A DNA stretch of 14,765 nt from Candidatus Woesearchaeota archaeon (GCA_013329175.1 DUKR01000077.1:1-14765); one strand, 5' to 3'; counted from the stretch's first letter, positions 8 through 12,124 are shown. The notes: generated by a model not told the origin, from the sequence alone. Program-made: numbers and translations.

Positions 8-730
8 CTAAGGGGATCTGGAGGCACCCTCTATAAGTTGTGCTTTGATATCTTCAATTTGTTTCTTTATATCCTGCTCATCACTTTCACATAACTTATC
101 AATTCTGGCTTCCATTTTCGTCTCGCCGTCAATGGCTCCATGCTCCCGAGAAAACAATTCATTTAACTCTTTAAGCTTTTGCTTCTCTTGCTCAACAGCC
201 TTTATTTCATCCTTGAGGAGAGGCAGGAGTTGCTCTTTAATTCCTTTCCGCAAATTATTTATGTTTGTGAGAATGCTGGATAATGACTCAATGCTGGCAG
301 ATATTTGCTTTTTCCACTGGCTTCCCCTAAACCATCTGCCGAATTTATCGCCGTATTTTTTTATGCCAAGGCCATGCAATGCTCTAAGCTCAACAAGCAA
401 CTCATCGTGAGCAATTCGTACAAGAGTAGTAATCTCTTCCATTTGCTGCTTGGCAAGTGCATCAAACCTAGCCATTCGCTCCCTTCTCAATGCAACAAGC
501 TTAGCAAGATCCTCCATGAGTTTTCCCTCATTACTGCTAAACTGGAACTCACGCTGTGCGTTATTAATCTCTTTCTCGGTTAAGATCCTCAACTTGCTGA
601 AATTGCTCAAACCTTTTTGTATATCATACGCCCTACCATTTACCCTTTGTTCAACATCCCTTCTTGCATACACAAGCCTCCCCGCCTTAGTGGGATAATA
701 GTTGCGAAGATGCTTACTCCACCATGCCAT
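8..730 (-). CDS. Hypothetical coiled-coil protein of 240 aa. Helical and rich in charged residues, with no TM segment. Its start codon overlaps the stop of the upstream small basic protein gene (ATGA).
   Basis: The ORF is intact across 723 nt. The sequence has long heptad-like stretches (KEQLLPLLKDEIKAVEQEKQKLKELNELF), which I infer are coiled coil. The 4-nt overlap with 730-960 indicates an operon. I recognise no family. Confidence 0.55.
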   Translation of the reverse strand: MAWWSKHLRNYYPTKAGRLVYARRDVEQRVNGRAYDIQKGLSNFSKLRILTEKEINNAQREFQFSSNEGKLMEDLAKLVALRRERMARFDALAKQQMEEITTLVRIAHDELLVELRALHGLGIKKYGDKFGRWFRGSQWKKQISASIESLSSILTNINNLRKGIKEQLLPLLKDEIKAVEQEKQKLKELNELFSREHGAIDGETKMEARIDKLCESDEQDIKKQIEDIKAQLIEGASRSP

Positions 731-960
731 TATCTCTTCGCCTCTTGCTCAGCATGGGCTGCCATAGCCTTCAATTTAGAAAGAGCGCCAATAAAATTCG
801 TTATATGCTTGCACAACTCCTTTTGCTTCTTCGCAGAATGGTGCCTCGACAACGCCAGGGCCCGGTCAACAAAAGGCTCAGCCTTGTCGTGAAGGGAGTC
901 TATTTTTTTGATAAGATGCCTCTTTTTTGCAGAAGAAGTCTTTTTGCTCTTCGTAGGCAT
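730..960 (-). CDS. Small basic protein of 76 aa. It has a Lys/Ser-rich N-terminal tail (PTKSKKTSSAKKRHLIKK) followed by helices. It may bind nucleic acid.
   Basis: The ORF starts at the ATG at 960, right next to a TATA-like box (plus-strand 983-994, read on the minus strand as AAAATATATTAA) placed for leaderless transcription. It is translationally coupled to 8-730. The composition is histone-tail-like and basic. No family recognised. Confidence 0.45.
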   Translation of the reverse strand: MPTKSKKTSSAKKRHLIKKIDSLHDKAEPFVDRALALSRHHSAKKQKELCKHITNFIGALSKLKAMAAHAEQEAKR

Positions 961-1329
961 TCACTTTTTTTCACTGTGCAGATTAATATATTTTTCGGTG
1001 GCCAAGAAAATAAAAAAAAGTATCTGTTAATAAATAAACATATTAAGTATTAAATTTAATGCCGCATTGATAAAAAAATAAATATAAAAAATAAGATTTC
1101 CATTTATAAATACTAAACCTTATTAGTTATAGCGCTTATCTAGATAACATGGAACACTTATTTAAAATAAAACTAGATATATTATTATTTAATAAAAATA
1201 ATTATTAATTAACCAAAAAAGCTAGCGTATTTATTAATGAACGTTTTTTATTAATATTATTTAGTATAACTAAAAAATCAAAAACCTTAAATAGTAATTA
1301 TAATAATAGATAGATAAATTTACTAACAA
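961..1329. promoter_or_regulatory. Divergent, extremely A/T-rich intergenic control region. It has TATA-like boxes about 27 nt upstream of both flanking start codons. It carries a perfect 12-bp palindrome TTATCTAGATAA (1136-1147). TAGATA recurs at 1141, 1174, 1307 and 1311. TTATTAAT occurs three times (1203-1210, 1231-1238, 1248-1255).
   Basis: Read directly from the sequence. The stretch AATTATAATAATAG at 1296-1309 is centred about 27 nt before the ATG at 1330. The stretch TTAATATATTTT at 983-994 (read on the minus strand) is centred about 27 nt before the ATG at 960. This spacing matches archaeal TATA-box/BRE architecture and leaderless transcripts. Confidence 0.4.
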
Positions 1330-1872
1330 ATGAGTAAAAAAATATCCACTTACACCATTGCAGGGCTCTTTACCCATGATTTCTCCAGAAGATATTATCT
1401 TAAAGAGATGGCTGATGCCCTTGGAAAACCTCATCAGACCCTCAAGCCCTATATCGCTGAGCTTGTGAAGCAAAGCATACTTATGGAGGAGAAGCGTGGG
1501 AATCTTCTCGAATACACACTCAACACAGGAAGTCCGTTGGTGGTAGCGTACTTGGCCATCGCAGAGCAAGAGCAAGCGTTAGAGCAAGCGAAAAAGGAGG
1601 GCTTCCTTGTTGAGCTGTTCTCTCTTGGAAGGGAGATGAAGGGGGCGATCATCGCCGCACCCATAGACAAAGAGCGATGGCACGTGGTGCATGTCGGGGG
1701 TGGGGTAATCAATAGGGAACACCCCCGATTTTCTTTTTCTCACTATGGGCAATTTGAGGAGATTCCCTTGGAGGAACTGAAAGGGCTCTATCGCGTTCAC
1801 GTGATATTCAGGGGAGTTGAAGAGGTTGTCAGCGAGTTTGTAAGGAGGTATGCACTGCATGGAATCGCCTAA
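1330..1872 (+). CDS. Hypothetical protein of 180 aa. The N-terminus looks like a winged helix-turn-helix (MADALGKPHQTLKPYIAELVKQSILMEEKRGNLLEY). The C-terminal roughly 90 aa are an unknown domain. I propose it as a candidate transcriptional regulator of the downstream operon.
   Basis: Intact ORF with probable leaderless start. The N-terminal residue pattern resembles MarR/ArsR-type wHTH recognition helix plus wing (inference from memory, not searched). The stop lies 14 nt inside the next gene. Confidence 0.5.
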   Translation: MSKKISTYTIAGLFTHDFSRRYYLKEMADALGKPHQTLKPYIAELVKQSILMEEKRGNLLEYTLNTGSPLVVAYLAIAEQEQALEQAKKEGFLVELFSLGREMKGAIIAAPIDKERWHVVHVGGGVINREHPRFSFSHYGQFEEIPLEELKGLYRVHVIFRGVEEVVSEFVRRYALHGIA

Positions 1873-3316
1873 GGATGAACGCAGAAAGGCAATGCCTGCT
1901 GTAACCTTCCTGCTGCTCATGGCGCTGGCCTTCATCGCAACGGTGCCAGAGCTATCTCTTGCTGCCACTGATGACGGATTGCTTGGAGTGATTGAGCCCA
2001 TCAGCAACCTTTTTGGGCCTATCATTGAACAGCTGAATTCAGTATGGGGGGGAAGTCCGGACGACTCAGCAATCTTTGTTGCCAAATTCGTGCTCTGGAT
2101 ACTTTTGTTTGCTTTACTCTACTACCCCTCAAACATGATTTTCAAGGATGCTGGCAAGGGAGTCAAGGTAGCCATTCCTTTTGTGCTTGCGCTGCTGGGC
2201 ACTGCGCTGATGCCTGCAGAGATCCTCATCAACGTCATGCAGACCTATGCGCTTGCCGGAGCTTTAATCCTGTGGATAATACCGATAGCCGGGACATGGT
2301 TCCTCATGCACAGGGTGCCGCAGGAGGGTGCATGGAAATTTTTACGCCTCATCCTTTACATCATCATCATTTACCTGTTGATGAACATTAGTGAATCAAT
2401 TACTTTCATGCTTGGCGATCTGCCTGAGTGGCTAAGCTATCTTAATCTTGTCATCGGCATCGTCACCATTATGTTCCTCAAGGAGTTGCTTACTATTTTC
2501 AGAGGTTCTGAAGCAGGGGGGGATGGAGGAAGTGGGGGTGGCGGCCTCTTTAACTGGTGGAAGAAAAAAATACCTTCCAGCCCTCAGGCCTTACCAGATG
2601 AAGTTGCAACGGCCCTCCAGGGAGCACAGAAGGCAGAGAAGCTGAGCAAAAAAGAGCAATATCTGCTCCAAGAAATCGAAAATCTTGAAAAACGGGAGAT
2701 TACCAAAACCGAAATGATAATTAATGATATCAACAAAATTGAGTCGGCTTTGCGAACTGGAAAACTAGATGAGCCTGTCAAGACAACCCTTGACAGTATG
2801 GCACGCTACTACAATGAAACAAGAACCATTGAGGATTATATTGAGCGTGAATTTAATCAGGTTCTAAACGATCTTGAACAGGAATATCAAGCGTTACGTC
2901 CACAGAAAGATCTTGCTAAGAGATTAATCAAAGTTGCCAACATAAAATTCCCCTTGAAGGCAGAAAAAGTCAAAAGGTACATTTCCACTATCAATAAGGA
3001 TATCACTAATTATATTCGCCAAATAAGAGAAAAAATAGAACTATATCAAGGAAAGCTAAAACGCCAGTTATCCCTCTTTAGGCAATTCATGCAGCTGGCA
3101 TATCAGCAACTTAATGGATTTGGCAATAGGGGTGCGGCACTAAGCTATCTCAATGATGCAAAAACTACAATGAATCTCATTCATGCTGACTTAGAAGGCA
3201 AGTTAAAGCCACTTACTGAGAAAATAAAAAATGACGTAGGAGGGGTTATCAGAAAGATTAAAGCGATGGAAAATGGAGACAAGAAGCTATTGCTAGGTAA
3301 AATAAACAGGTTTTGA
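1859..3316 (+). CDS. Exported polytopic membrane protein of about 485 aa. It has a Sec signal peptide (cleavage likely after SLAA), about 5 TM helices, a Gly-rich linker (GSEAGGDGGSGGGG) and a roughly 230-aa cytoplasmic coiled-coil tail. It is a paralog of 3328-4329.
   Basis: The ORF track gives 1850. I prefer the ATG at 1859 because a perfect SD AAGGAGGT (1842-1849) lies 9 nt upstream. The ATG at 1892 is also possible. Hydrophobic segments: FVAKFVLWILLFALLYY, VAIPFVLALLGTALMP, ALAGALILWIIPIAGTWFLM, LRLILYIIIIYLLMNI, LVIGIVTIMFL. The C-terminal half is charged and heptad-like with no Pro or Gly runs. Confidence 0.7.
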   Translation: MESPKDERRKAMPAVTFLLLMALAFIATVPELSLAATDDGLLGVIEPISNLFGPIIEQLNSVWGGSPDDSAIFVAKFVLWILLFALLYYPSNMIFKDAGKGVKVAIPFVLALLGTALMPAEILINVMQTYALAGALILWIIPIAGTWFLMHRVPQEGAWKFLRLILYIIIIYLLMNISESITFMLGDLPEWLSYLNLVIGIVTIMFLKELLTIFRGSEAGGDGGSGGGGLFNWWKKKIPSSPQALPDEVATALQGAQKAEKLSKKEQYLLQEIENLEKREITKTEMIINDINKIESALRTGKLDEPVKTTLDSMARYYNETRTIEDYIEREFNQVLNDLEQEYQALRPQKDLAKRLIKVANIKFPLKAEKVKRYISTINKDITNYIRQIREKIELYQGKLKRQLSLFRQFMQLAYQQLNGFGNRGAALSYLNDAKTTMNLIHADLEGKLKPLTEKIKNDVGGVIRKIKAMENGDKKLLLGKINRF

Positions 3317-3327
3317 GGTGCAGATAG

Positions 3328-4329
3328 ATGGTCATGGGAAAAAGCAAATCGAAAAAAAGAGGAGCAGCCAAATGGATAAGAATTGTAGCTGGAACAACTA
3401 TCTTATTCACTCTGTCAATTCCTTCAGCACTTGCCGCAACAGGCGACGTATCCTATGACTTAGGCTCAGTGCTCTACCGCATCATGGGCTGGCTCTTTGT
3501 TGATTTCTCTGACTCTGCCGGAAGCCTGCTCTATGAATTCTATCTCAAGTTTGCCTTGTTTGTGCTGGTCTTCGCCCTCTATTTCTTTGCAGCTACCAAA
3601 GCATTCAAGGGCGATGAGCACAAGAGCATCAGGATAACCATTGCCTTTGTTTTTGCCCTGCTCAGCGTTGCGCTCATTCCTCATCCCATCCTTGCTTCCA
3701 TTGCAGAGGGCTACAAGCTTGTCGGAACCGTTGTTTTCTTCCTGATTCCCGCTATTGGCTTTATCCTGCTCAACCATTATGCCTTTTCAGTCAAGGCGCG
3801 GGCGTACTATGGGGTGAAGGCCATCGTCTACTATGTCATTGCCATGCTCTTCCATAACATGTCAGCAGCAGGAGCTTCCTTTGCCTTTAATTTTCAGCAG
3901 CTTTCAAGCTTTGCTGAAGTCATTTTCATCTTTCTTGCAATTGCCAATCTCTTCATGGCGCTTACCTCAGGCGACGGAGTGGAGGGAGAGGAGGAAGGTG
4001 CTGGAAAATATGATGGCAGCAGCCCCATCTGGAAAGCGCTTGGAGGGCATGAGGATGGCCATGATGATAAAAAGGTGAAGCATGCGGAAAAGGAGGATGT
4101 TGACCATGAAGATGAGGCAAAGAAAAGAAAGCGGGAAGAGGCAGCTGAAGACTTAAAGACGCTGGAAGGCATCAGGGAAAGGATACGCTCGGAATTTAAC
4201 CATCTGGTGACTGCTCTGGATGAAACTGAAAATGACGCAAGAGAAAGGCTCAAGAGGCTTGCAGAGCGCATACGTGAGCTTGATGCAATACAGCGGAGGA
4301 TTAATGCATTGTCCCAGCAGCAAGCATGA
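3328..4329 (+). CDS. Exported polytopic membrane protein of 333 aa. It has a Sec signal peptide (ALAA|TGD), 4-5 TM helices, an acidic His/Asp/Glu/Lys-rich linker and a short cytoplasmic coiled-coil tail. It is a paralog of 1859-3316.
   Basis: SD GAGGTG at 3315-3320 lies 7 nt before the ATG and overlaps the upstream stop. Alignable blocks with the upstream gene: SDSAGSLLYEFYLKFALFVLVFALYFF vs DDSAIFVAKFVLWILLFALLYY, and FKGDEHKSIRITIAFVFALLSVALIPHPIL vs FKDAGKGVKVAIPFVLALLGTALMPAEIL. Both have an LIP..G...L.H motif after TM3. Confidence 0.7.
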   Translation: MVMGKSKSKKRGAAKWIRIVAGTTILFTLSIPSALAATGDVSYDLGSVLYRIMGWLFVDFSDSAGSLLYEFYLKFALFVLVFALYFFAATKAFKGDEHKSIRITIAFVFALLSVALIPHPILASIAEGYKLVGTVVFFLIPAIGFILLNHYAFSVKARAYYGVKAIVYYVIAMLFHNMSAAGASFAFNFQQLSSFAEVIFIFLAIANLFMALTSGDGVEGEEEGAGKYDGSSPIWKALGGHEDGHDDKKVKHAEKEDVDHEDEAKKRKREEAAEDLKTLEGIRERIRSEFNHLVTALDETENDARERLKRLAERIRELDAIQRRINALSQQQA

Positions 4330-4871
4330 CCATGGCTCAGGCAACCCTTTCTCAGGTGCGCAAGGCGTATGAGCAGCTTGTACTATCCATACTCAACGAG
4401 CTAAGAAAGACTATCGAGGATCTCCAGAGGGAAAGAAAAGAGCTTGAGTACAGCCTAAAAGCAGTACTTGAAAAAATCCACGATGAAAAGTTGCAGGAGA
4501 TTTTTAATAACCTCAGTGAGGAAAAAAAAAACGAACATCGAGCAAAAGTTGAGAATTTCAAAAAGCTTCGAAGCACAGGCATAGCAGTAAGCAGGCAGGA
4601 TGAGAAAACTGCTCACACCATCCTTCGTGAAATAAGCCAAAATATAGTTGTCCTTGAGAGCATGGTAACCACGTTGACGGGCATCATGAGGGAATCAAAA
4701 AACCTGTACCATCTTGATACCAATGCATTGTATCAGGGCATTTTAGGTGTCCATGAATCCCTCAAGAAAAGAGAAAAAGTTATCCTCCAAGAGATTGAGC
4801 CGCATGTAACAAGCTTTTTTAATTACTTGGAGCAGGCAAAGATAGAGTTGCTTGCTCAGGTTAATTCCTAA
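4326..4871 (+). CDS. Soluble coiled-coil protein of 181 aa. It is a paralog of the N-terminal domain of 4885-6429.
   Basis: ATGA overlap with the upstream gene indicates translational coupling. Charged heptad-like sequence. It shares blocks with the next gene: SQVRKAYEQLVLSILNELRKTIEDLQRERKEL vs AQLKKKYEELALFIFNQIEQTITELLDERKLL, and NLYHLDTNALYQGILGVHESL vs ALYNLNTNELYSKIMLVHDAI. Confidence 0.65.
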   Translation: MTMAQATLSQVRKAYEQLVLSILNELRKTIEDLQRERKELEYSLKAVLEKIHDEKLQEIFNNLSEEKKNEHRAKVENFKKLRSTGIAVSRQDEKTAHTILREISQNIVVLESMVTTLTGIMRESKNLYHLDTNALYQGILGVHESLKKREKVILQEIEPHVTSFFNYLEQAKIELLAQVNS

Positions 4872-4884
4872 AGGAAACACTATC

Positions 4885-6429
4885 ATGGCAGACCAGCAAC
4901 TGGCACAGCTCAAGAAAAAGTATGAGGAGCTTGCTCTCTTTATCTTTAATCAGATTGAGCAAACGATAACGGAATTACTGGATGAGCGAAAGCTTTTGCA
5001 GCAGAAGGGAAAGGCTGGCATAACCATGCTGCATGTAAACAAAAAGGCAGAAGCGATTGCTTTGAAGGCAAAAATAGCTCTTTCTGCTGATATTCAACAG
5101 CGTTATGATGCTGCTTTGCAGCAATTTGATGCACTTTTGAATAAGGCAACCATTCTTGAGCATCAGGAAGAGCACGCAGTTAAAACCATTCTGCAAAGGC
5201 TTGATACTGAGATTGCTGAACTTCAGGCGTTGGCTAGTCAGGTCACTGCAGCCCATCAAACGAGACCTGCGTTGTATAACCTTAACACAAACGAGCTCTA
5301 TAGTAAAATTATGCTTGTCCATGATGCAATAACCAAGCAGCAGGAGCACGAGCAGAAGTTTAGAGCAGCAAGACAAGAATTTGAACAAGAGCTTGGCCAA
5401 AAAATTCATGAAATTGAAGCTATCCTGAGTGAGAAAGCTATTGCTACTATTGCAACTCCAGTAGTACAAGGTAATACTATTACTACGTCTCAGGGAAGTG
5501 TTCAACCATTAGCCATAGCTCCTGGAGGGCAAAGTGGAGTTATTGGACATGATGAAAAAGATTCAGTCGTGCAGACTGTAAAAATCGACCTGAACAATCT
5601 TGAGCATGCTGATAACATCATTCAATTCCAGCGCAGTGACAGGGAAGTTAGGAAAGCTTTTCAAGTGCTGGAAAAGAAAAGAATGGAAGGTCAGTTGCTG
5701 AAGGCAAAGAAAGCTATAAAGGCAGTCACCACTAAAATTAATATGTATGGACCAAAATACAACAGTGGAGAGTATAAACTGGCATTTATGACAAATGTTG
5801 TCGACCAGTATATGGAGTATATGTATGGGGTACTGTATAGCTATCTTCTTCATGTGGATGAAGCATCGGAATTTATTGCAACCTTATATAGCAGGCTGGA
5901 GACTATTGAAAGCACTAAGCTCACTAAATTTCAAAAAGAGAAAGTTGCAATTATTGCTCACCTCGTGAAGATTGCAGGAGAAACAGACGACAAAAGACCA
6001 GGAAACCTAGGAAAAAAAGGTAAAATTCCTCGGGAATTGCCTGCAAAGATTGATAGCTATGTTACTAATGAACTAAAGATTCTTGAACAAGATACACCAC
6101 CAGGCAGAATCCAAGTAGATATTGACAGGTTACAACTCTTAATTCTTCAGCTTGAAAAAAAACTAAAGAAAGCTATGCATTTAGCTGAACAAAGGATAAA
6201 AGCCTCTTACTTTGCATGGACAAAACGTGGCTATCAAGGGGCTGTAGGGCATCTGAATACCCTCAACATCCTTGTTGATGAGAAAATAAGGTTAGTGAAA
6301 CAAATGATGGATATTGAGCAGCAGATTAGCACAAAGCTTGAAAACCATATCTTCAATTATCTTAATGACAATAAAAAGCTAAAGGACCTTCAAAAGCTGC
6401 TAAGAAAGATACATCTTGGCGAAATTTAG
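4885..6429 (+). CDS. Coiled-coil protein of about 514 aa. The N-terminal roughly 190 aa are homologous to 4326-4871. A Thr/Gly/Gln-rich linker follows (ATPVVQGNTITTSQGSVQPLAIAPGGQSG), then a roughly 300-aa C-terminal domain of unknown function.
   Basis: The ORF track start at 4852 would overlap the upstream gene. The alignment with its paralog begins at MADQQ (ATG 4885), and AGGAAA lies 8 nt upstream, so 4885 is preferred. No TM segment. I recognise no family. Confidence 0.65.
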   Translation: MADQQLAQLKKKYEELALFIFNQIEQTITELLDERKLLQQKGKAGITMLHVNKKAEAIALKAKIALSADIQQRYDAALQQFDALLNKATILEHQEEHAVKTILQRLDTEIAELQALASQVTAAHQTRPALYNLNTNELYSKIMLVHDAITKQQEHEQKFRAARQEFEQELGQKIHEIEAILSEKAIATIATPVVQGNTITTSQGSVQPLAIAPGGQSGVIGHDEKDSVVQTVKIDLNNLEHADNIIQFQRSDREVRKAFQVLEKKRMEGQLLKAKKAIKAVTTKINMYGPKYNSGEYKLAFMTNVVDQYMEYMYGVLYSYLLHVDEASEFIATLYSRLETIESTKLTKFQKEKVAIIAHLVKIAGETDDKRPGNLGKKGKIPRELPAKIDSYVTNELKILEQDTPPGRIQVDIDRLQLLILQLEKKLKKAMHLAEQRIKASYFAWTKRGYQGAVGHLNTLNILVDEKIRLVKQMMDIEQQISTKLENHIFNYLNDNKKLKDLQKLLRKIHLGEI

Positions 6430-6435
6430 GTAACC

Positions 6436-7098
6436 TTATCGGGAAAGTTTTTTTTGAGTAATAGTAGCAGTGTATACAGGACCAGCTGACCGTGCTCCCG
6501 CTGCGCCAGTAACATAGCTTGGAATCAGTAAAGAGGAGGATGGATTATTAATGATCTCAGCAATCACTGCATTTAACTGGCTTACATTCTCTGGAAAGGG
6601 CTTGCTGGGGTCAACTTTTATAACTGCTGTGTTGCCTGCTGCATCTTGAAACATCTCTACGTTATCACCTAGTGGGACTATTGCATTAAGATACGTTTGA
6701 TCATTTGGACCTTTAATTAATTCTAGTTTAGGTCCAAGATTCTGAGCTGGACCAATTACTTGAACATAGTCAGCTGTTACCCTAAGAAAATCCGCTAAAT
6801 TATCCCTTCCTTCAACTGTGACATATTTACCTACCGTATTCCTTACTTTAAGAGCAGTGTTGTAGCCATCAGTTATAACATTCTCACCTAGCTTAGTAAC
6901 AGAGTTAGCAGCATCCCACTTATCCTCCCCATATTTAATAACACTACTTACTCCACTTACTATGTAAGGTAGGGAATAAAGGGCAAGGGCACCGGCAGCC
7001 ATAAATTTAATAATCTTGCCTGCCTTTCTTTTTGACTTTTGTGGTGCTATTAAATCTTGTAGAGTTTTGGACATTTCCATAGCAAATCCAGAAAGCAT
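6436..7098 (-). CDS. Membrane-anchored exported protein of 214-220 aa. It has a single N-terminal TM/signal anchor (IIKFMAAGALALYSLPYIVSGV) and an extracytoplasmic beta-rich domain. It sits immediately downstream of the SPFH gene.
   Basis: Intact ORF. A perfect archaeal TATA TTTATATA (minus-strand reading of 7105-7112) is centred about 27 nt upstream of the in-frame ATG at 7080 (MEMSKTL). The true start may therefore be 7080 with a leaderless mRNA, or the gene is co-transcribed with SPFH. I recognise no family; the position is analogous to NfeD partners of SPFH proteins. Confidence 0.55.
   Translation of the reverse strand: MLSGFAMEMSKTLQDLIAPQKSKRKAGKIIKFMAAGALALYSLPYIVSGVSSVIKYGEDKWDAANSVTKLGENVITDGYNTALKVRNTVGKYVTVEGRDNLADFLRVTADYVQVIGPAQNLGPKLELIKGPNDQTYLNAIVPLGDNVEMFQDAAGNTAVIKVDPSKPFPENVSQLNAVIAEIINNPSSSLLIPSYVTGAAGARSAGPVYTATITQKKLSR
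6448..6455 (+). terminator. Oligo-T tract (T8) 19 nt downstream of the stop of 4885-6429. It is a candidate archaeal intrinsic terminator. It lies inside the last codons of the convergent minus-strand gene.
   Basis: The T8 run is read directly. Archaeal RNA polymerase terminates at oligo-T tracts (established). The assignment of function here is inference. Confidence 0.3.
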
Positions 7099-7147: not shown

Positions 7148-8425
7148 TTACAGGTTTGTGGTTGTATTTTCTGCAGAATATATAGACTTTGTGGGTCTTA
7201 TAACACCCTTATTTGGACTCAGGTACGCCCCCAATTGGTTTGCAAGAGCATCAAGAACATTTCCCCCAAAATTTGTCATTTGCAAGTTTAATTTCTGCTC
7301 CTGGATCATACTGATAAGGGCTGCATACCGCCCGCCATCCTTTGCTATTTCAACACTAATCTTTTGTATTGTCTCTGCCTGTGCTTCTGCTAACTTTTTC
7401 ATTGCATTAGCATCTGCTTCCCCTTTTGTCATGATTGCATAAGCAGTGGCATCGGCATCTTTTTTTTGTGCTTCATATGTTGCTTGTGCAGCATATTTTA
7501 GCGCAGCGGCTTTAGTGACTTCTTCATCTGGAGTAATACGTTGAAAGCTCACTGAAAGAATTTCCAGTCCTAAATTGTTATATGTTTGGTTAAGCCCACT
7601 GATCATCTGATTACCAACGTTATGCTCAGCATTAATCTCATCAAACGTATGGCTCCCAATGTATTTTCTTACAAGTGCGCTTGCTTCAGCCCAGACCTGC
7701 CCTATAGGGTCGTTTGCTCCGTACAGCGCCTGCCTGACTGATTTGTAATCATCACCGATCTTTATGCTAATAACAGCATCAATGGTAGTTGAAAGCCCAT
7801 CCTTAGTTACAATGCCTTCCTCTTGCTGAAGGTCAATCTGGGTGATGCTGGTGTCAACCACATCCCACTGGGTAAAAATTGGAACCCTTAAGTGCAGCCC
7901 AGCTCCATGCATTTTTTGCTCACGCTCATTCCAAAGCATGGCAAGCCCTTTAGGAATATTCCACACAGACCATGCGTTTTCGCTGTTGTCTTGAGGAGTT
8001 GGGCTATATCCAGACAGATATTTTCCTACCTTTTGGTAGCCTCCAACTGATTGCACCACACTGTGCGCTCCATAGCCAAGAATAGCAAACGGAGCTATTG
8101 CAGAAACTGTGGAACCAATAAAGGGAAGATAGGAAGCAGGAGCAGTGGCCAACGGAGAAACTTTCCATACTGCCCATGTAGCAAGCGCCCTTAGCACAGG
8201 ATTCTGTTTCTGGGGCCTGCCAAGGGTTTTTGGTATTGCCCGCTGGTCAGGCTCAAGCATTGCTGCTGGTGAATATATGCTTTGCCAACCGGGCATTAGG
8301 CTGTTAAAATAATTTTTATGAATAAGAAGCTTTTCTGCAATAGAATCGACTACGGCTTCTAAATCACCCGCTTCAGAAGTAGTCGCCTCACCTATTCCAA
8401 CTGGTATGTACTCATCGTCTGCCAT
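7148..8425 (-). CDS. SPFH/band-7 (stomatin/prohibitin/flotillin/HflKC) domain protein of 425 aa. It has a roughly 170-aa N-terminal extension that includes a hydrophobic hairpin-like segment. The C-terminus is an Ala/Lys/Glu-rich helix.
   Basis: Core SPFH signature blocks are present: GLHLRVPIFTQWDVVDTSITQIDL, VTKDGLSTTIDAVISIKIGD, ALVRKYIGSHTFDEI and LGLEILSVSFQRITPDEEV, followed by AQATYEAQKKDADATAYAIMTKGEADANA. This is typical of the family from established knowledge. A TATA-like TTTAAATA (minus-strand reading of 8496-8503) lies upstream. Confidence 0.85.
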   Translation of the reverse strand: MADDEYIPVGIGEATTSEAGDLEAVVDSIAEKLLIHKNYFNSLMPGWQSIYSPAAMLEPDQRAIPKTLGRPQKQNPVLRALATWAVWKVSPLATAPASYLPFIGSTVSAIAPFAILGYGAHSVVQSVGGYQKVGKYLSGYSPTPQDNSENAWSVWNIPKGLAMLWNEREQKMHGAGLHLRVPIFTQWDVVDTSITQIDLQQEEGIVTKDGLSTTIDAVISIKIGDDYKSVRQALYGANDPIGQVWAEASALVRKYIGSHTFDEINAEHNVGNQMISGLNQTYNNLGLEILSVSFQRITPDEEVTKAAALKYAAQATYEAQKKDADATAYAIMTKGEADANAMKKLAEAQAETIQKISVEIAKDGGRYAALISMIQEQKLNLQMTNFGGNVLDALANQLGAYLSPNKGVIRPTKSIYSAENTTTNL

Positions 8426-8539: not shown

Positions 8540-9208
8540 CTACGCAAACGCTGTCGCAGGAGTCCTGGCGTAAGGCTGCGCAGGAAGATAGTCTCCTGCT
8601 ATGCGTTTTACCCTGTCAAGAACACGCCTGGACATAGGCTTTTTTGCTTTGTACAATCCCTGCTCCTTGAGGAACTCGGTAACTCCTTCCGAAATAGCCT
8701 TTTTGCTGGTAATTCTGGTCATGACATTGTAGTCAAGACTTAGGCAGATAACAGGAATCAACCATGCTATTGCTTTTGAGCCAAGCCAGTCTGCAGCTCC
8801 ATACACATCCCATGTCTCACTCAGATAGCTGTAGAGGGATGGCAATTCCAGCGCCGCTTTTCCTCCTACAAGCGCTGCCTGAAACAGCCCAAAGTCACCA
8901 AACGGAGTGCCTTTAAGAAAATGGTAGGCATCATTGACAATCGCTCCAATACCTGTGCCCTTCGTAGCAGCGCTGGTAAGCATACCAAGATGCTTTTGAT
9001 GATGATCAACCCTGCCCTGTATTTTCTGCTCAAGAGAGGAATATAATTGCTGCTTCTCTTCATCAGTCTTGCCTGCAAACAATTGCTTACTAATGTCAGT
9101 TGAAAGATAGTTCCTGATGCCATCCGCTACAGGCTCAAGAGGCGTGTAAGGTCGGGAGCAATACGGCAATTCACCCTTCTTCCTAATCTTACACTTCTGG
9201 GCTACCAT
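8540..9208 (-). CDS. Hypothetical protein of 222 aa from the ATG at 9208 (the ORF extends to 9340, 266 aa). It contains one or two hydrophobic segments (AIAWLIPVICLSLDY).
   Basis: Long ORF in a region that is not A/T-rich and so is likely coding. The first 44 codons of the 266-aa version overlap a more protein-like plus-strand ORF, so I prefer the shorter start. No family recognised. Confidence 0.4.
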   Translation of the reverse strand: MVAQKCKIRKKGELPYCSRPYTPLEPVADGIRNYLSTDISKQLFAGKTDEEKQQLYSSLEQKIQGRVDHHQKHLGMLTSAATKGTGIGAIVNDAYHFLKGTPFGDFGLFQAALVGGKAALELPSLYSYLSETWDVYGAADWLGSKAIAWLIPVICLSLDYNVMTRITSKKAISEGVTEFLKEQGLYKAKKPMSRRVLDRVKRIAGDYLPAQPYARTPATAFA

Positions 9209-9256
9209 TGGGAGACCATGTGCATTTCCCTCAAAACGTTTGACATCAGCCACGAG

Positions 9257-9505
9257 ATGAGGTTTAAGGAGTATATCTCTGACAGGCCGGCAGTCATCAG
9301 GGCAGTCAAGGTTCTTGGCAACTGTGACCTCATGCTGCACATCGCAACAAAGGATGCTTCAGAGCTTCACAAGACTATCAAAGGCATCTATAAGGCATTT
9401 GTTGATATCATCACAGGCTACCAGGCATGGGGAGCCTACAAAGAGCACTTTTTCACAATCTTTCCTGCTGTTGTTTCTGACAAAGAAAATGCAGAGCAGA
9501 AGTGA
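9257..9505 (+). CDS. Small protein of 82 aa (95 aa from 9218). It has a possible beta-alpha-beta ACT/RAM-like pattern (AVIRAVKVLGNCDLMLHIATKDASELHKTIKGIY). It may be co-transcribed with pth2.
   Basis: The amphipathic periodicity is protein-like. It has the same orientation as pth2 and gpmA, with only 48 nt and no TATA box before pth2. The resemblance to Lrp/AsnC ligand-binding domains is weak and from memory only. Confidence 0.35.
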   Translation: MRFKEYISDRPAVIRAVKVLGNCDLMLHIATKDASELHKTIKGIYKAFVDIITGYQAWGAYKEHFFTIFPAVVSDKENAEQK

Positions 9506-10714: not shown

Positions 10715-12124
10715 GGATATTCATGCCGCCCATTGGCATCGTAATCGTTCACTATCATGAAGCTTTTTCTTCATTCTCCTCCGCCTCAATCCATGCGTTC
10801 CATGGCGGCTCATTCCAGAAAAACGGGCCATTACCTGGGGCTTCCTGCCACAAGCGTCGCTTCTGTTCTCTCTGTTTTTGCCAGACGTAACATTGCTATT
10901 TACAATTCCGTCATGCACTGTATAGTCCCTCATCCTTCATACACGCTCGTGCAGCGCACTGACTTTTGCCAATGGCTGCGTGCATTTCTGTCTTCAGCGT
11001 TTTTCACCCGTTACAGCAGAAAACCTGTGTGCCGTCAATTACGCGAGCATTGGCAGTGTTGTGGTGGCGAAGGTCGTGGGGGGTTGTCCCTTACGGGGGT
11101 GCGACCTCATCGTCCCGCTTCATCTCCATGCGAGCCGACGGCACACCAATGGTTTTCTGCTCGAGTGAAAAACGCTAAGGAAAACGCCAAGGCCTTCATC
11201 ACCTCCAAAGAGAAATGCAGCAACAATCGCTTCAGGAAAGTGAACAATTATGGAGAAATGCATTGATATTGTGACACCGCGATGGATTGCGTCTGCTGAC
11301 ACCTCTCCACGCATTTCGCCTATTGAATAATTGCGGCTACTGTCACATAAATACCGCAATTATCCATACTTGGCATCCCGACAAACCCTAAGCTCCGCCT
11401 CTTCGCCTGCATCAACGACAGGAGACAGGAAGAGGCAACAATGGCATCCTGCGCTCCCCCGCATCACGAGGGCTGATGTGAAGGAACTCAAGCGCTGGGT
11501 GCTAAGGCAGGGGCATGCCCGCAACATCTTCGCCACCGCAACCAGATGCATGGGCTTCTGTAACGATGAATCAAGAAGTATAGGCAGCAGGCCATCGCCT
11601 ATTGCGTACTCCTTCACTTTCTTGAAAAGCCCTGCCCGGGAGGAAGGATACAGGCTCGCTGGATAGCCATGAGTTAAGGCTTTGAGGGATATTGGCAGGC
11701 AGGCTCGTGGAAAGCTGGCATTCCCAAAAAACTCAGTAGAAAAAAAGGCATTAGCCATGCCTCCCGTCGCATCCACACTCAATTCGTAACTCCCTTCTTT
11801 TCGTTTCAGGCAATCCACTCAATGCACAATCCGAGGTAAACAAAAAAGCCTCAGCTGGCCAGCAGGGCATGTGTTGCAGCCATTGCCGCAGTGTAGCGCG
11901 CTGCACCGTCAGGCATGGAGGATGGGCGCTGGCAGCAGTGCACGACGGAATTTCCATCATCAGGATTTGCAGCACAAACAGGGGAGGGAGGAAAAATAAA
12001 GGGATGGGATGAGAAAGAAGCCACAGGCAATGAGCTTTTAGGGAATGCCTTTTCGGGAGCGATGCCCATCACAGTTACAAAGAGGCAGGCAACTTCATAA
12101 AGGTGAAGTACTACCCTATTGCCC
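10715..12124. other. A 1.4-kb region with no credible protein-coding ORF on either strand. It could be a decayed pseudogene remnant or a long structured ncRNA.
   Basis: All six frames are broken into ORFs of at most 169 aa with junk-like Cys/Arg/Ser/His-rich translations that overlap each other on both strands. The region is not A/T-rich like true intergenic DNA here. Confidence 0.3.

What the first reader, a model, noticed from the sequence alone, without database searches (positions are those of the whole stretch)
1859..6429. Tandemly duplicated membrane-protein plus coiled-coil-protein module: candidate undescribed membrane scaffold system
Four consecutive plus-strand genes form two paralog pairs. 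The first pair (1859-3316 and 3328-4329) are exported polytopic membrane proteins. Each has a Sec signal peptide with an A-x-A site, 4-5 TM helices, a low-complexity linker and a cytoplasmic coiled-coil tail. The second pair (4326-4871 and 4885-6429) are soluble coiled-coil proteins sharing a roughly 190-aa N-terminal domain. Coupling is tight: an SD overlaps the stop at 3314-3320, the genes overlap by ATGA at 4326-4329, and a 13-nt gap with AGGAAA precedes 4885. I recognise none of the four as a named family. The architecture of membrane anchors with coiled-coil cytoplasmic arms plus free coiled-coil partners resembles a membrane-attached filament, scaffold or tether. Candidate roles include an archaeal cytoskeletal, division or vesicle apparatus, or a host-contact apparatus. 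Coiled-coil-rich surface and membrane proteins are reported for episymbiotic DPANN-like archaea.
Basis: partly seen in the sequence, partly recalled or inferred. Interest (0 to 1): 0.85.

Follow-up and report, generated by a model that had tools for sequence, protein, structure and literature searches.

The report
Undescribed DPANN membrane-anchor operon
Four unannotated genes of a Woesearchaeota (DPANN archaeon) genome are real. They belong to an operon type conserved across Woesearchaeota and Nanoarchaeota: two paralogous five-helix membrane proteins with long tails predicted to lie inside the cell, followed by soluble helical proteins; its function is still unknown.

Summary
Genes A (1859-3316), B (3328-4329), C (4326-4871) and D (4885-6429) exist with the stated junctions and form two paralogue pairs (A/B E 4e-18; C/D E 8e-19).

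- **No known family.** None matches Pfam, NCBIfam, PHROGs, PADLOC or PDB sequences. NCBI calls all four "hypothetical protein" in a Candidatus Woesearchaeota MAG.
- **A/B is a real family.** The shared N-terminal domain (signal peptide, short outside helix, five TM helices) finds 278 cluster representatives (E ≤ 0.001). Every hit whose source gives an organism name is from Woesearchaeota or Nanoarchaeota.
- **No fold relative.** A confident AlphaFold model (pLDDT 83.5) has no specific match in the PDB or in viral models.
- **The duplication is ancient.** Upstream "A-type" and downstream "B-type" genes form separate clades in six of seven tandem pairs.
- **Conserved locus.** The usual order elsewhere is A-type, B-type, a small soluble helical protein, then a PAC2 protein.
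- **C/D link.** A C/D-like protein lies directly after a family member in one other lineage.

Best reading (confidence about 0.4): A and B form a membrane platform whose flexible cytoplasmic tails bind soluble partners. No function is demonstrated. A few relatives carry papain-like peptidase or PKD domains in the tail, which sits badly with cytoplasmic tails. The division, vesicle and host-contact ideas remain untested.

The parts
961..1329 (.). Very AT-rich divergent intergenic region; likely promoter region of the five-gene + strand unit
   Evidence: Sequence read. TATA-like TTAAATA lies about 37 nt before the ATG at 1330. No gaps interrupt the genes from 1330 to 6429. Promoter function is inferred, not tested.
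1330..1872 (+). 180-aa probable winged-helix DNA-binding protein; overlaps the start of gene A by 14 nt
   Evidence: Weak PADLOC hits: PDC-M05A E 7.5e-4 and CasR E 0.006, both over aa 13-80. hhalign against the HTH_5 proteins that precede B-type genes elsewhere gives E 0.059 over the recognition helix and wing. No Pfam hit. A small HTH gene overlapping the membrane gene's start is also seen in L010, L011 and L013.
1859..3316 (+). Gene A (485 aa), A-type member of the membrane family. Signal peptide aa 1-35 (nt 1859-1963); outside helix plus 5-TM domain aa 36-214 (nt 1964-2500); Gly-rich linker aa 215-232 (nt 2501-2554); helical tail aa 233-485 (nt 2555-3313)
   Evidence: AlphaFold2 pLDDT 83.5; family search; topology; heptads; A-type clade.
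3328..4329 (+). Gene B (333 aa), B-type member. Signal peptide aa 1-36 (nt 3328-3435); 5-TM domain aa 37-213 (nt 3436-3966); Gly- and acid-rich linker aa 214-265 (nt 3967-4122); helical tail aa 266-333 (nt 4123-4326)
   Evidence: B-type clade. The weak Fzo_mitofusin hit in the tail (20.5 bits against a cut-off of 27) is below threshold.
4326..4871 (+). Gene C (181 aa), soluble helical protein without signal peptide or TM helix; a paralogue of the N-terminal domain of D
   Evidence: Heptad segments 13-58 and 90-127. Remote homologue L019 1139-2560.
4885..6429 (+). Gene D (514 aa). C-like helical domain aa 1-182 (nt 4885-5430); disordered linker aa 183-238 (nt 5431-5598); all-helical C-terminal domain aa 239-514 (nt 5599-6426)
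   Evidence: All-alpha in the AlphaFold2 model, but confidence is low (pLDDT 52.6; 185-265 below 50). In the consensus of the D-cluster alignment, unresolved positions are dense in the linker. The word-index search found no homologues.

Best explanation
The window carries a five-gene operon (probable wHTH regulator, then A, B, C, D) of a Candidatus Woesearchaeota genome. It is a lineage-specific version of a locus type conserved in Woesearchaeota and Nanoarchaeota.

A and B are old paralogues (A-type and B-type) of an undescribed family. Each has a cleavable Sec signal peptide, a short amphipathic helix on the outer face, five TM helices, a flexible low-complexity linker, and a fast-evolving helical tail predicted to lie in the cytoplasm.

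Proposed mechanism (inferred, not shown): A and B assemble into a hetero-oligomeric membrane platform. Their tethered tails act as docking arms that hold soluble helical partners (C and D here; unrelated-looking small helical proteins, followed by a PAC2 protein, in other lineages) at the inner face of the membrane. In short, a membrane-anchored cytoplasmic scaffold or adaptor.

Shown: gene structure, paralogy, family membership, taxonomic restriction among the named hits, predicted fold and topology, and conserved gene order. Inferred: physical A-B and tail-partner contacts, and any cellular role.
For: **Family**
- A profile of the A+B membrane domain finds 278 representatives at E ≤ 0.001 and 92 at E ≤ 1e-10. 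All have the domain at the N-terminus, followed by tails; total lengths are 123-927 aa.
- Named members are Woesearchaeota, Nanoarchaeota or Nanoarchaeia.

**Structure and topology**
- AlphaFold2 on 45 sequences: pLDDT 83.5, a signal-peptide helix, an outside helix and five TM helices.
- Family-wide net charge: signal-peptide n-region +2.2, outside N-terminal segment -2.2, loop 1 +1.2, loop 3 +1.0, loop 4 -0.7. This fits N-terminus outside and C-terminus inside.

**Conserved heterotypic pair**
- An A-type gene directly followed by a B-type gene, often with a 4-nt overlap, occurs in the window and in L002, L015, L008, L023, L024 and L026.
- In a neighbour-joining tree the upstream genes fall in one clade and the downstream genes in another, in six of seven pairs.

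**Soluble partner position**
- A helical protein of 154-312 aa, without signal peptide or TM segment on reading the sequences, follows in L002, L015, L008, L010, L023, L024 and L026.
- A PAC2 gene follows at no more than about 60 nt in six of these seven loci.

**C/D link**
- L019 1139-2560 (473 aa) starts 1 nt inside the end of a family member. It aligns from residue 1 with C and D.
- Smith-Waterman z is about 8.5 against 2000 shuffles, versus 1.3-2.6 for other helical controls. hhalign gives E 1.2e-4.

**Tails**
- Median length 185 aa, 31% charged residues, 0.2% Cys; 48 of 127 have no tail relative.
Against: - No experiment or co-folding supports A-B, tail-C or tail-D contacts.
- C/D-type proteins were found next to the family in only two lineages. 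The proteins in the "third gene" position elsewhere show no detectable homology to C/D or, mostly, to each other. The partner idea therefore rests on position alone.
- Two of 106 family members scanned (P0006 among them), plus L014 4891-6981, carry a papain-like peptidase in the tail. P0140 carries two PKD domains. These domains are usually extracellular, which conflicts with cytoplasmic tails.
- The most conserved residues of the membrane domain (K76, P119, Y130, P142, N176) lie mostly near the predicted outer face. The conserved function may therefore be in or outside the membrane rather than in the tails.
- Heptad periodicity is patchy.
Confidence: 0.4

Rival explanations
1. Membrane proteostasis platform. 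The A/B complex recruits proteolytic machinery to the membrane for turnover of membrane or secreted proteins: the proteasome through the adjacent PAC2-family protein, or a fused papain-like peptidase in some members. This would be loosely analogous to HflK/C-FtsH or ERAD adaptors.
For: - A PAC2 (PF09754) gene follows the A-type, B-type, soluble-protein genes at no more than about 60 nt in L002, L015, L008, L010, L023 and L024, although the membrane domains are only about 25-35% identical.
- Peptidase_C1 is fused to the tail in P0006 (27.9 bits, above the 20.7 cut-off) and in L014 4891-6981.
- LonB lies in the same neighbourhood in L005, L008 and L010.
- An SPFH protein lies next to the window operon. 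From general knowledge, some SPFH proteins regulate membrane proteases.
Against: - The window has no PAC2 gene.
- SPFH is not seen beside the family anywhere else.
- LonB is several genes away and on the other strand.
- Gene order could be inherited among related small genomes rather than functional.
- Peptidase fusions are rare (2 of 106 scanned).
- No interaction evidence exists.
Confidence: 0.15
2. The conserved 5-TM domain is the functional part: a channel, a transporter, or a lipid- or glycan-handling protein acting at the outer face of the membrane. The variable tails and the soluble proteins would be only regulatory or lineage-specific additions.
For: - Conservation is concentrated in the membrane domain, while the tails are hypervariable.
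- Nearly invariant residues (K76, P119, Y130, P142, N176) cluster near the predicted outer leaflet.
- There are sub-threshold Pfam matches to multi-pass membrane families: Yip1 in 4 of 45 members (best 24 bits), and Mem_trans and DUF5693 in 3-4 each.
- From general knowledge, DPANN archaea depend on imported lipids and metabolites.
Against: - No conserved charged or polar residues inside the bilayer that would suggest a pore or active site.
- A five-helix monomer is small for a transporter.
Confidence: 0.15
3. Membrane-linked signalling module. The membrane protein senses an envelope or contact signal and controls the small HTH protein encoded immediately upstream (for example by sequestering it on its tail), so regulating its own or other genes.
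For: - A small HTH gene overlaps the start of the membrane gene in the window (14 nt), in L010 and L013 (both HTH_5; 4-nt overlap), and in L011.
- The B-type proteins paired with an HTH gene have the largest tails (817-927 aa).
Against: - The canonical A-type/B-type/soluble/PAC2 loci have small TM proteins upstream instead of an HTH.
- The HTH proteins are of different kinds. The window's 180-aa protein is only weakly HTH-like.
- Simple autoregulation of the operon explains the linkage equally well.
- No known sensor or transmitter domains were found.
Confidence: 0.1
4. The tails are outside the cell. The family would then be a surface-display anchor presenting helical stalks, peptidases or PKD domains on the cell surface, possibly for host contact.
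For: - PKD (P0140) and papain-like domains (P0006, L014) are typical extracellular domains.
- Pro-, Thr- and Gly-rich linkers resemble archaeal surface-protein stalks.
- The segment just after TM5 is net acidic, -0.6.
Against: - Five TM helices after a cleaved signal peptide put the C-terminus inside. Loops 1 and 3 are positive and the N-terminal segment is acidic across 45 members.
- No extra TM helix lies between TM5 and the PKD or peptidase domains.
- The tails are Lys/Glu-rich.
- The co-encoded candidate partners lack signal peptides.
Confidence: 0.1
5. Cargo of a virus, plasmid or other mobile element rather than a cellular system.
For: - GC content of 1-9.4 kb (0.35-0.49) is lower than that of 9.5-14.7 kb (0.49-0.52).
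- All genes in that stretch except the SPFH gene are orphans.
- An integrase fragment lies at the edge of L010.
Against: - No PHROG hits for A, B or D; C has only weak hits (best E 0.0011).
- No relatives in IMG/VR and no viral fold match.
- No integrase, capsid or replication genes in the window.
- In other genomes the family sits among housekeeping genes: L35Ae, PAC2, PPDK, RNA polymerase and GyrB.
- The low GC is expected for Lys/Glu/Ile-rich proteins.
Confidence: 0.03

Closest known systems
Membrane-anchored cytoplasmic scaffolds of bacterial division (ZipA, EzrA)
   Same: From general knowledge: a membrane anchor, a flexible Pro/Gln- or Gly-rich linker (ZipA) or a long helical cytoplasmic domain (EzrA), which tethers soluble partners to the inner face of the membrane. 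This is the closest analogy for how the system may work.
   Different: No sequence relation: no EzrA or ZipA Pfam hits. The anchor here is an exported 5-TM domain rather than a single N-terminal helix. It occurs as a conserved heterotypic pair. No FtsZ or SepF linkage was found; SepF is about 5 kb away in L023 only.
Yip1 domain family (Pfam PF04893)
   Same: A five-helix membrane bundle of similar size. Four of 45 family members give weak matches. The best is P0047: 24 bits, residues 94-205 against profile positions 32-138 of 173.
   Different: All matches are below Pfam's cut-off of 28.6 bits, and A and B give none. From general knowledge, Yip1 proteins have a cytosolic N-terminal domain and no signal peptide, so the orientation would be opposite.
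VirB6/TrbL-type polytopic proteins of type IV secretion
   Same: From general knowledge: a signal peptide, about 5-6 TM helices and a variable hydrophilic C-terminal extension, often duplicated in tandem.
   Different: No TrbL/VirB6 Pfam hit. No VirB4 or VirD4 ATPases or other secretion genes in any of about 14 loci.
MotA/ExbB-like ZorA (Zorya defence) with a long cytoplasmic coiled-coil tail
   Same: A multi-pass membrane domain followed by a long helical cytoplasmic tail. There are weak PADLOC hits of the A tail (E 0.007) and of C (E 0.087) to ZorA tail regions.
   Different: The hits cover only the compositionally biased tail. There is no MotA_ExbB domain and no ZorB/C/D neighbours, and the loci sit in a housekeeping context.
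SPFH/flotillin-type membrane scaffolds
   Same: A membrane-associated helical scaffold. A genuine SPFH protein is encoded next to the operon (7148-8425, minus strand; Pfam E 4.6e-20).
   Different: None of A-D has a Band_7 domain. SPFH is not next to the family in any other locus.

Membership tests
Any curated protein family (Pfam-A, NCBIfam, PHROGs, PADLOC) | Whole-protein score at or above the curated cut-off, or a significant E-value | tested here: not met
   A, B, C and D have no hit above cut-off. The best is B against Fzo_mitofusin: 20.5 bits against a cut-off of 27, in the helical tail. Of 106 relatives scanned, none has a Pfam family covering the membrane domain.
New DPANN 5-TM family defined here (A-type and B-type) | N-terminal signal peptide with a conserved Ala at -1, an outside amphipathic helix, five TM helices with the AKF...LLFA, IP...TY and P142 motifs, then a low-complexity linker and a variable tail | tested here: met
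   A and B score 1.5e-115 and 5.2e-111 against their own profile. Independent members score down to 8e-36. Conserved columns; model. A falls in the upstream clade and B in the downstream clade.
Yip1 domain (PF04893) | Pfam score of at least 28.6 bits; cytosolic N-terminus followed by five TM helices | tested here: not met
   A and B give no hit at E ≤ 1. The best family member, P0047, scores 24 bits. A cleavable signal peptide implies the opposite orientation.
VirB6/TrbL (type IV secretion) | TrbL/VirB6 Pfam domain; neighbouring VirB4- or VirD4-type ATPases | tested here: not met
   No such Pfam hit. No such neighbours in any fetched locus.
MotA/ExbB/ZorA | MotA_ExbB membrane domain; a ZorB or MotB partner | tested here: not met
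   Only tail-region PADLOC hits at E 0.007-0.087. No MotA_ExbB Pfam hit. No partner genes.
ESCRT-III / PspA / Vipp1 (considered for C and the N-terminal domain of D) | Snf7 or PspA_IM30 profile match; helical-hairpin fold | tested here: inconclusive
   No Snf7 or PspA_IM30 hit at E ≤ 1. No PDB sequence hit. The fold could not be tested because the D model is of low confidence (pLDDT 52.6).
   No such hits in A-D or in 106 relatives.
Coiled-coil proteins (generic class) | Extended heptad periodicity of hydrophobic residues in helical sequence | tested here: inconclusive
   A home-made heptad test against shuffles flags only segments of the A tail, the B tail, C and D. Dedicated predictors (DeepCoil, Marcoil) were not available.

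The most novel reading that the evidence does not exclude
The A-type, B-type, soluble helical protein, PAC2 locus would be a core piece of Woesearchaeota/Nanoarchaeota cell biology with no counterpart elsewhere. It would be a two-subunit membrane platform whose tethered cytoplasmic arms organise proteasome- or peptidase-dependent turnover, or another membrane-proximal process such as division or the cell-cell bridge to the host. The window's A-B-C-D operon would be a regulated second copy with its own partners.
Probability: 0.12. Interest if true: 0.8.

Novelty: categorically new. Interest (0 to 1): 0.55.

Why it matters
DPANN archaea have tiny genomes in which a large share of genes is unannotated. 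Little is known about how these cells organise their membrane, divide or connect to hosts.

This work turns four "hypothetical proteins" into a defined family with testable properties:
- a predicted fold and topology;
- two conserved subtypes that almost always travel together;
- a recurrent operon that includes a PAC2 (proteasome assembly chaperone-like) protein.

That gives experimenters concrete targets for co-folding, pull-downs, heterologous expression and metatranscriptomics, and it gives annotators a new domain model.

The "categorically new" rating means only that no relative was found in any curated family, the PDB or viral models with the tools available. The function may still turn out to be ordinary.

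Tried and rejected
- **Word-index homologue searches.** With A, D and a 45-sequence profile they returned only self or one protein. The exhaustive HMMER search was needed.
- **IMG/VR scans.** For D and for the A/B domain: no relatives.
- **Metagenome scan with the C/D alignment.** Nothing found. The C/D relative turned up only by reading the neighbours of family members.
- **Genome-contig scan.** A 7-sequence subset gave 3 loci.
- **Fold searches of the membrane-domain model.**
  - Foldseek against the PDB and BFVD found nothing at E ≤ 0.001.
  - The afdb50 library was unavailable.
- **Structure of D.** Confidence was too low for a fold search.
- **Homology of C/D to the \"third gene\" proteins of other loci.** hhalign probabilities were 1% or less. 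phmmer linked only L002, L015 and L024 to each other.
- **Yip1 lead.** Five Pfam calls show sporadic sub-threshold hits only.
- **Mobile-element origin.** Rejected; see the rival explanations.
- **Low-GC island idea.** Explained by amino-acid composition.
- **Literature.** Two full-text searches found no description of this family. The 2019 survey of archaeal dark matter (PMC6393860) lists other DPANN-specific clusters; I could not map this family onto them.

Full report
**1. The observation**

The four + strand ORFs are present as described: A 1859-3316 (485 aa), B 3328-4329 (333 aa), C 4326-4871 (181 aa) and D 4885-6429 (514 aa).

The junctions were read directly:
- AGGAGG lies 9 nt before the ATG at 1859.
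- The stop of A overlaps GAGGTG, 7 nt before the start of B.
- ATGA overlap between B and C.
- A 13-nt spacer with AGGAAA lies before D.

Paralogy is significant. A vs B share 27% identity over 216 aa of the N-terminal region, E 4e-18. C vs D share 31% over 153 aa from residue 1, E 8e-19.

A fifth ORF, 1330-1872, overlaps the start of A by 14 nt. It follows a 370-nt very AT-rich intergenic region. The unit is therefore best described as a five-gene operon.

**2. Identity of the genome**

Exact-sequence look-up shows the window is a complete 14,765-bp contig of a TPA metagenome-assembled genome named Candidatus Woesearchaeota archaeon (locus tags from HA361_03670). All four proteins are labelled "hypothetical protein". 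A sister MAG (HA270) carries the same genes. A nearly identical JGI contig is L001. Flanking genes are ordinary archaeal housekeeping genes: Pth2, phosphoglycerate mutase, AMP phosphorylase and an AI-2E permease.

**3. No known family**

- Pfam, NCBIfam, PHROGs and PADLOC give nothing above threshold for A-D. The weak hits are in the compositionally biased helical parts.
- PDB sequence searches are empty for D, for the A/B profile and for C.
- Rfam and tRNA scans of the window are empty.

**4. A and B belong to a real, sizeable family**

Word-index searches found only self. An exhaustive HMMER search with the A+B membrane-domain profile against 1.84 billion cluster representatives found 278 proteins at E ≤ 0.001, 92 at E ≤ 1e-10 and 3 at E ≤ 1e-30. 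The domain is always N-terminal and about 200 aa long. It is followed by tails giving total lengths of 123-927 aa.

Members that carry source names are Woesearchaeota, Nanoarchaeota or Nanoarchaeia. One contig is titled "uncultured Methanosarcinales archaeon", but its gene order is that of the DPANN loci.

Pfam scans of 106 full-length members found no family for the membrane domain.

**5. Structure and topology**

AlphaFold2 with 45 family sequences gives a confident model of the A domain (pLDDT 83.5, pTM 0.60). Its elements are a signal-peptide helix 12-27, an amphipathic helix 40-63, and five helices at 69-94, 100-116, 120-152, 159-185 and 189-214. This agrees with hydropathy.

The Ala at the -1 position of the predicted cleavage site is at least 90% conserved.

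Net charge across the 45 sequences follows the positive-inside rule for N-terminus outside, five TM helices and C-terminus inside:

| Segment | Net charge |
|---|---|
| Signal-peptide n-region | +2.2 |
| N-terminal outside segment | -2.2 |
| Loop 1 | +1.2 |
| Loop 2 | 0 |
| Loop 3 | +1.0 |
| Loop 4 | -0.7 |

Only about 35 residues and two short loops are predicted to be outside.

The fold has no specific relative:
- Foldseek against the PDB and against viral models gives nothing at E ≤ 0.001.
- The AlphaFold-database library was not available.

**6. The tails**

The linkers are Gly-, Pro- or acid-rich. The tails have a median length of 185 aa, 31% charged residues and 0.2% Cys. They diverge fast: 48 of 127 have no detectable tail relative.

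A simple heptad test supports coiled-coil character only for segments of the A tail, the B tail, C and D.

D is predicted to be all-helical, with a disordered stretch at 183-238, but the model is of low confidence (pLDDT 52.6). Unresolved positions in the consensus of the D-cluster alignment are dense in that linker.

A few relatives carry different tail domains:
- Peptidase_C1 in P0006 (27.9 bits, above the cut-off) and in L014 4891-6981.
- Two PKD domains in P0140.

These are usually extracellular domains, and no extra TM helix precedes them. This conflicts with cytoplasmic tails and remains unexplained.

**7. Gene neighbourhoods**

I read about 14 independent loci.

| Locus or loci | Arrangement |
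|---|---|
| L002, L015, L008, L023, L024 | A-type, then B-type (often a 4-nt overlap), then a soluble helical protein of 164-312 aa, then a PAC2 (PF09754) protein; L35Ae a few genes upstream |
| L026 | A-type, B-type and soluble protein; no PAC2 gene is called on this 7.5-kb contig |
| L010 | The A-type/soluble/PAC2 part lies separately from an HTH_5/B-type pair |
| L010, L011, L013 | A small HTH gene overlaps the start of a B-type gene with a very long tail |
| L014 | A peptidase-bearing member is followed by a second member |

A neighbour-joining tree of the membrane domains puts the upstream genes of six of seven tandem pairs in one clade and the downstream genes in another. Window A falls in the first clade and window B in the second. 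Reciprocal phmmer scores agree: A's best match is L002-464 at 1e-35, against 1e-17 for B. The A/B duplication is therefore old, and the pair is maintained.

**8. C and D**

I found these only in this species cluster, with one exception. In L019, a 473-aa ORF (1139-2560) starts 1 nt inside the end of a family member (183-1139). In the overlapping contig L018 it is followed by another family member.

- Its first 150 residues align from residue 1 with C and D.
- Smith-Waterman scores are 97 and 88 against a null of 39±7 and 35±6 (0 of 2000 shuffles reached them). Three other helical control sequences give z 1.3-2.6.
- hhalign gives E 1.2e-4, and phmmer gives E 1.3e-5 in the small local set.
- BLASTP with composition correction is not significant on its own.

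I therefore call this a probable remote homologue.

The proteins in the "third gene" position of other loci are not detectably related to C/D.

**9. Interpretation**

Established:
- An undescribed membrane-protein family, found so far only in DPANN archaea.
- A conserved heterotypic pair.
- A conserved position for a soluble helical protein.
- Frequent linkage to PAC2, or to a small HTH gene.

The most economical mechanism is a hetero-oligomeric membrane platform whose flexible, tethered cytoplasmic tails dock soluble partners. In working principle this resembles ZipA or EzrA, but there is no homology. I give this about 0.4.

Rival explanations:
- A proteostasis platform (PAC2 linkage, peptidase fusions, the SPFH neighbour): 0.15.
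- A function residing in the conserved membrane domain itself: 0.15.
- An HTH-controlling sensor: 0.1.
- Surface display with the tails outside: 0.1.
- Mobile-element cargo: 0.03.

Direct host contact is unlikely given the small predicted ectodomain.

**10. Novelty and score**

No curated family, no PDB sequence or fold relative, and no paper in two full-text searches describes this family. On distance from known systems it rates as new.

Uncharacterised membrane proteins are common in DPANN genomes, and no function is shown here. Overall interest is therefore moderate (0.55).

Noticed in passing
window 7148-8425 (-), with 6436-7098 (-) and 8540-9340 (-): A genuine SPFH/Band_7 protein (Pfam E 4.6e-20) with an unusual N-terminal extension of about 165 aa. 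It runs convergent to gene D, with the downstream 220-aa gene ending 6 nt from D's stop, and is flanked by two orphan proteins, one with a single TM helix. SPFH was not seen beside the membrane family in any other locus.
   Followed up: partly
window 10720-12120: A 1.4-kb stretch (GC about 0.52) between the phosphoglycerate mutase and AMP phosphorylase genes. It has only overlapping, unconvincing ORFs on both strands and no Rfam match at gathering score or at E ≤ 1, apart from a chance-level C/D-box hit.
   Followed up: partly
window 8-730 (-) and 730-960 (-): A divergent two-gene unit upstream of the operon: a 240-aa charged helical orphan and a 76-aa basic protein. Neither has a family match. 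They share the very AT-rich 370-nt intergenic region 961-1329 with the operon.
   Followed up: no
L002 5364-8987; L008 1-504; L011 4009-7194: Intein-containing housekeeping genes in related DPANN loci: pyruvate phosphate dikinase with Intein_splicing and LAGLIDADG domains, and GyrB with an intein.
   Followed up: no
L008 / L016 (GCA_964459835.1, contig CAYWPA010000002.1): The contig is titled "uncultured Methanosarcinales archaeon". It carries the same LonB, TctA, L35Ae, A-type, B-type, soluble protein, PAC2 order as the Woesearchaeota and Nanoarchaeota loci, so the taxonomic label may be wrong.
   Followed up: no
P0140 (447 aa); P0006 = L011 8001-10610; L014 4891-6981: These family members have tails carrying two PKD domains or a papain-like Peptidase_C1 domain with an apparent Cys/His/Asn triad. 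No extra TM helix precedes these domains, so they are predicted to be cytoplasmic, which is unusual for these domain types.
   Followed up: partly
L002 598-1327; L015 7112-7916; L024 6454-6950: Two or three small (63-104 aa) one- or two-TM proteins are conserved immediately upstream of the A-type gene in the canonical loci. They may be further subunits of the same unit. They are absent from the window.
   Followed up: no
window 9218-9505 (+) versus 8540-9340 (-): On the near-identical contig L001, an 82-aa + strand gene with a weak AsnC_trans_reg hit is called at the position corresponding to the window ORF 9218-9505 (+). The minus-strand gene is called at 237 aa there, against 266 aa in the window's ORF list. 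The start of the 8540-9340 ORF is probably further downstream.
   Followed up: no
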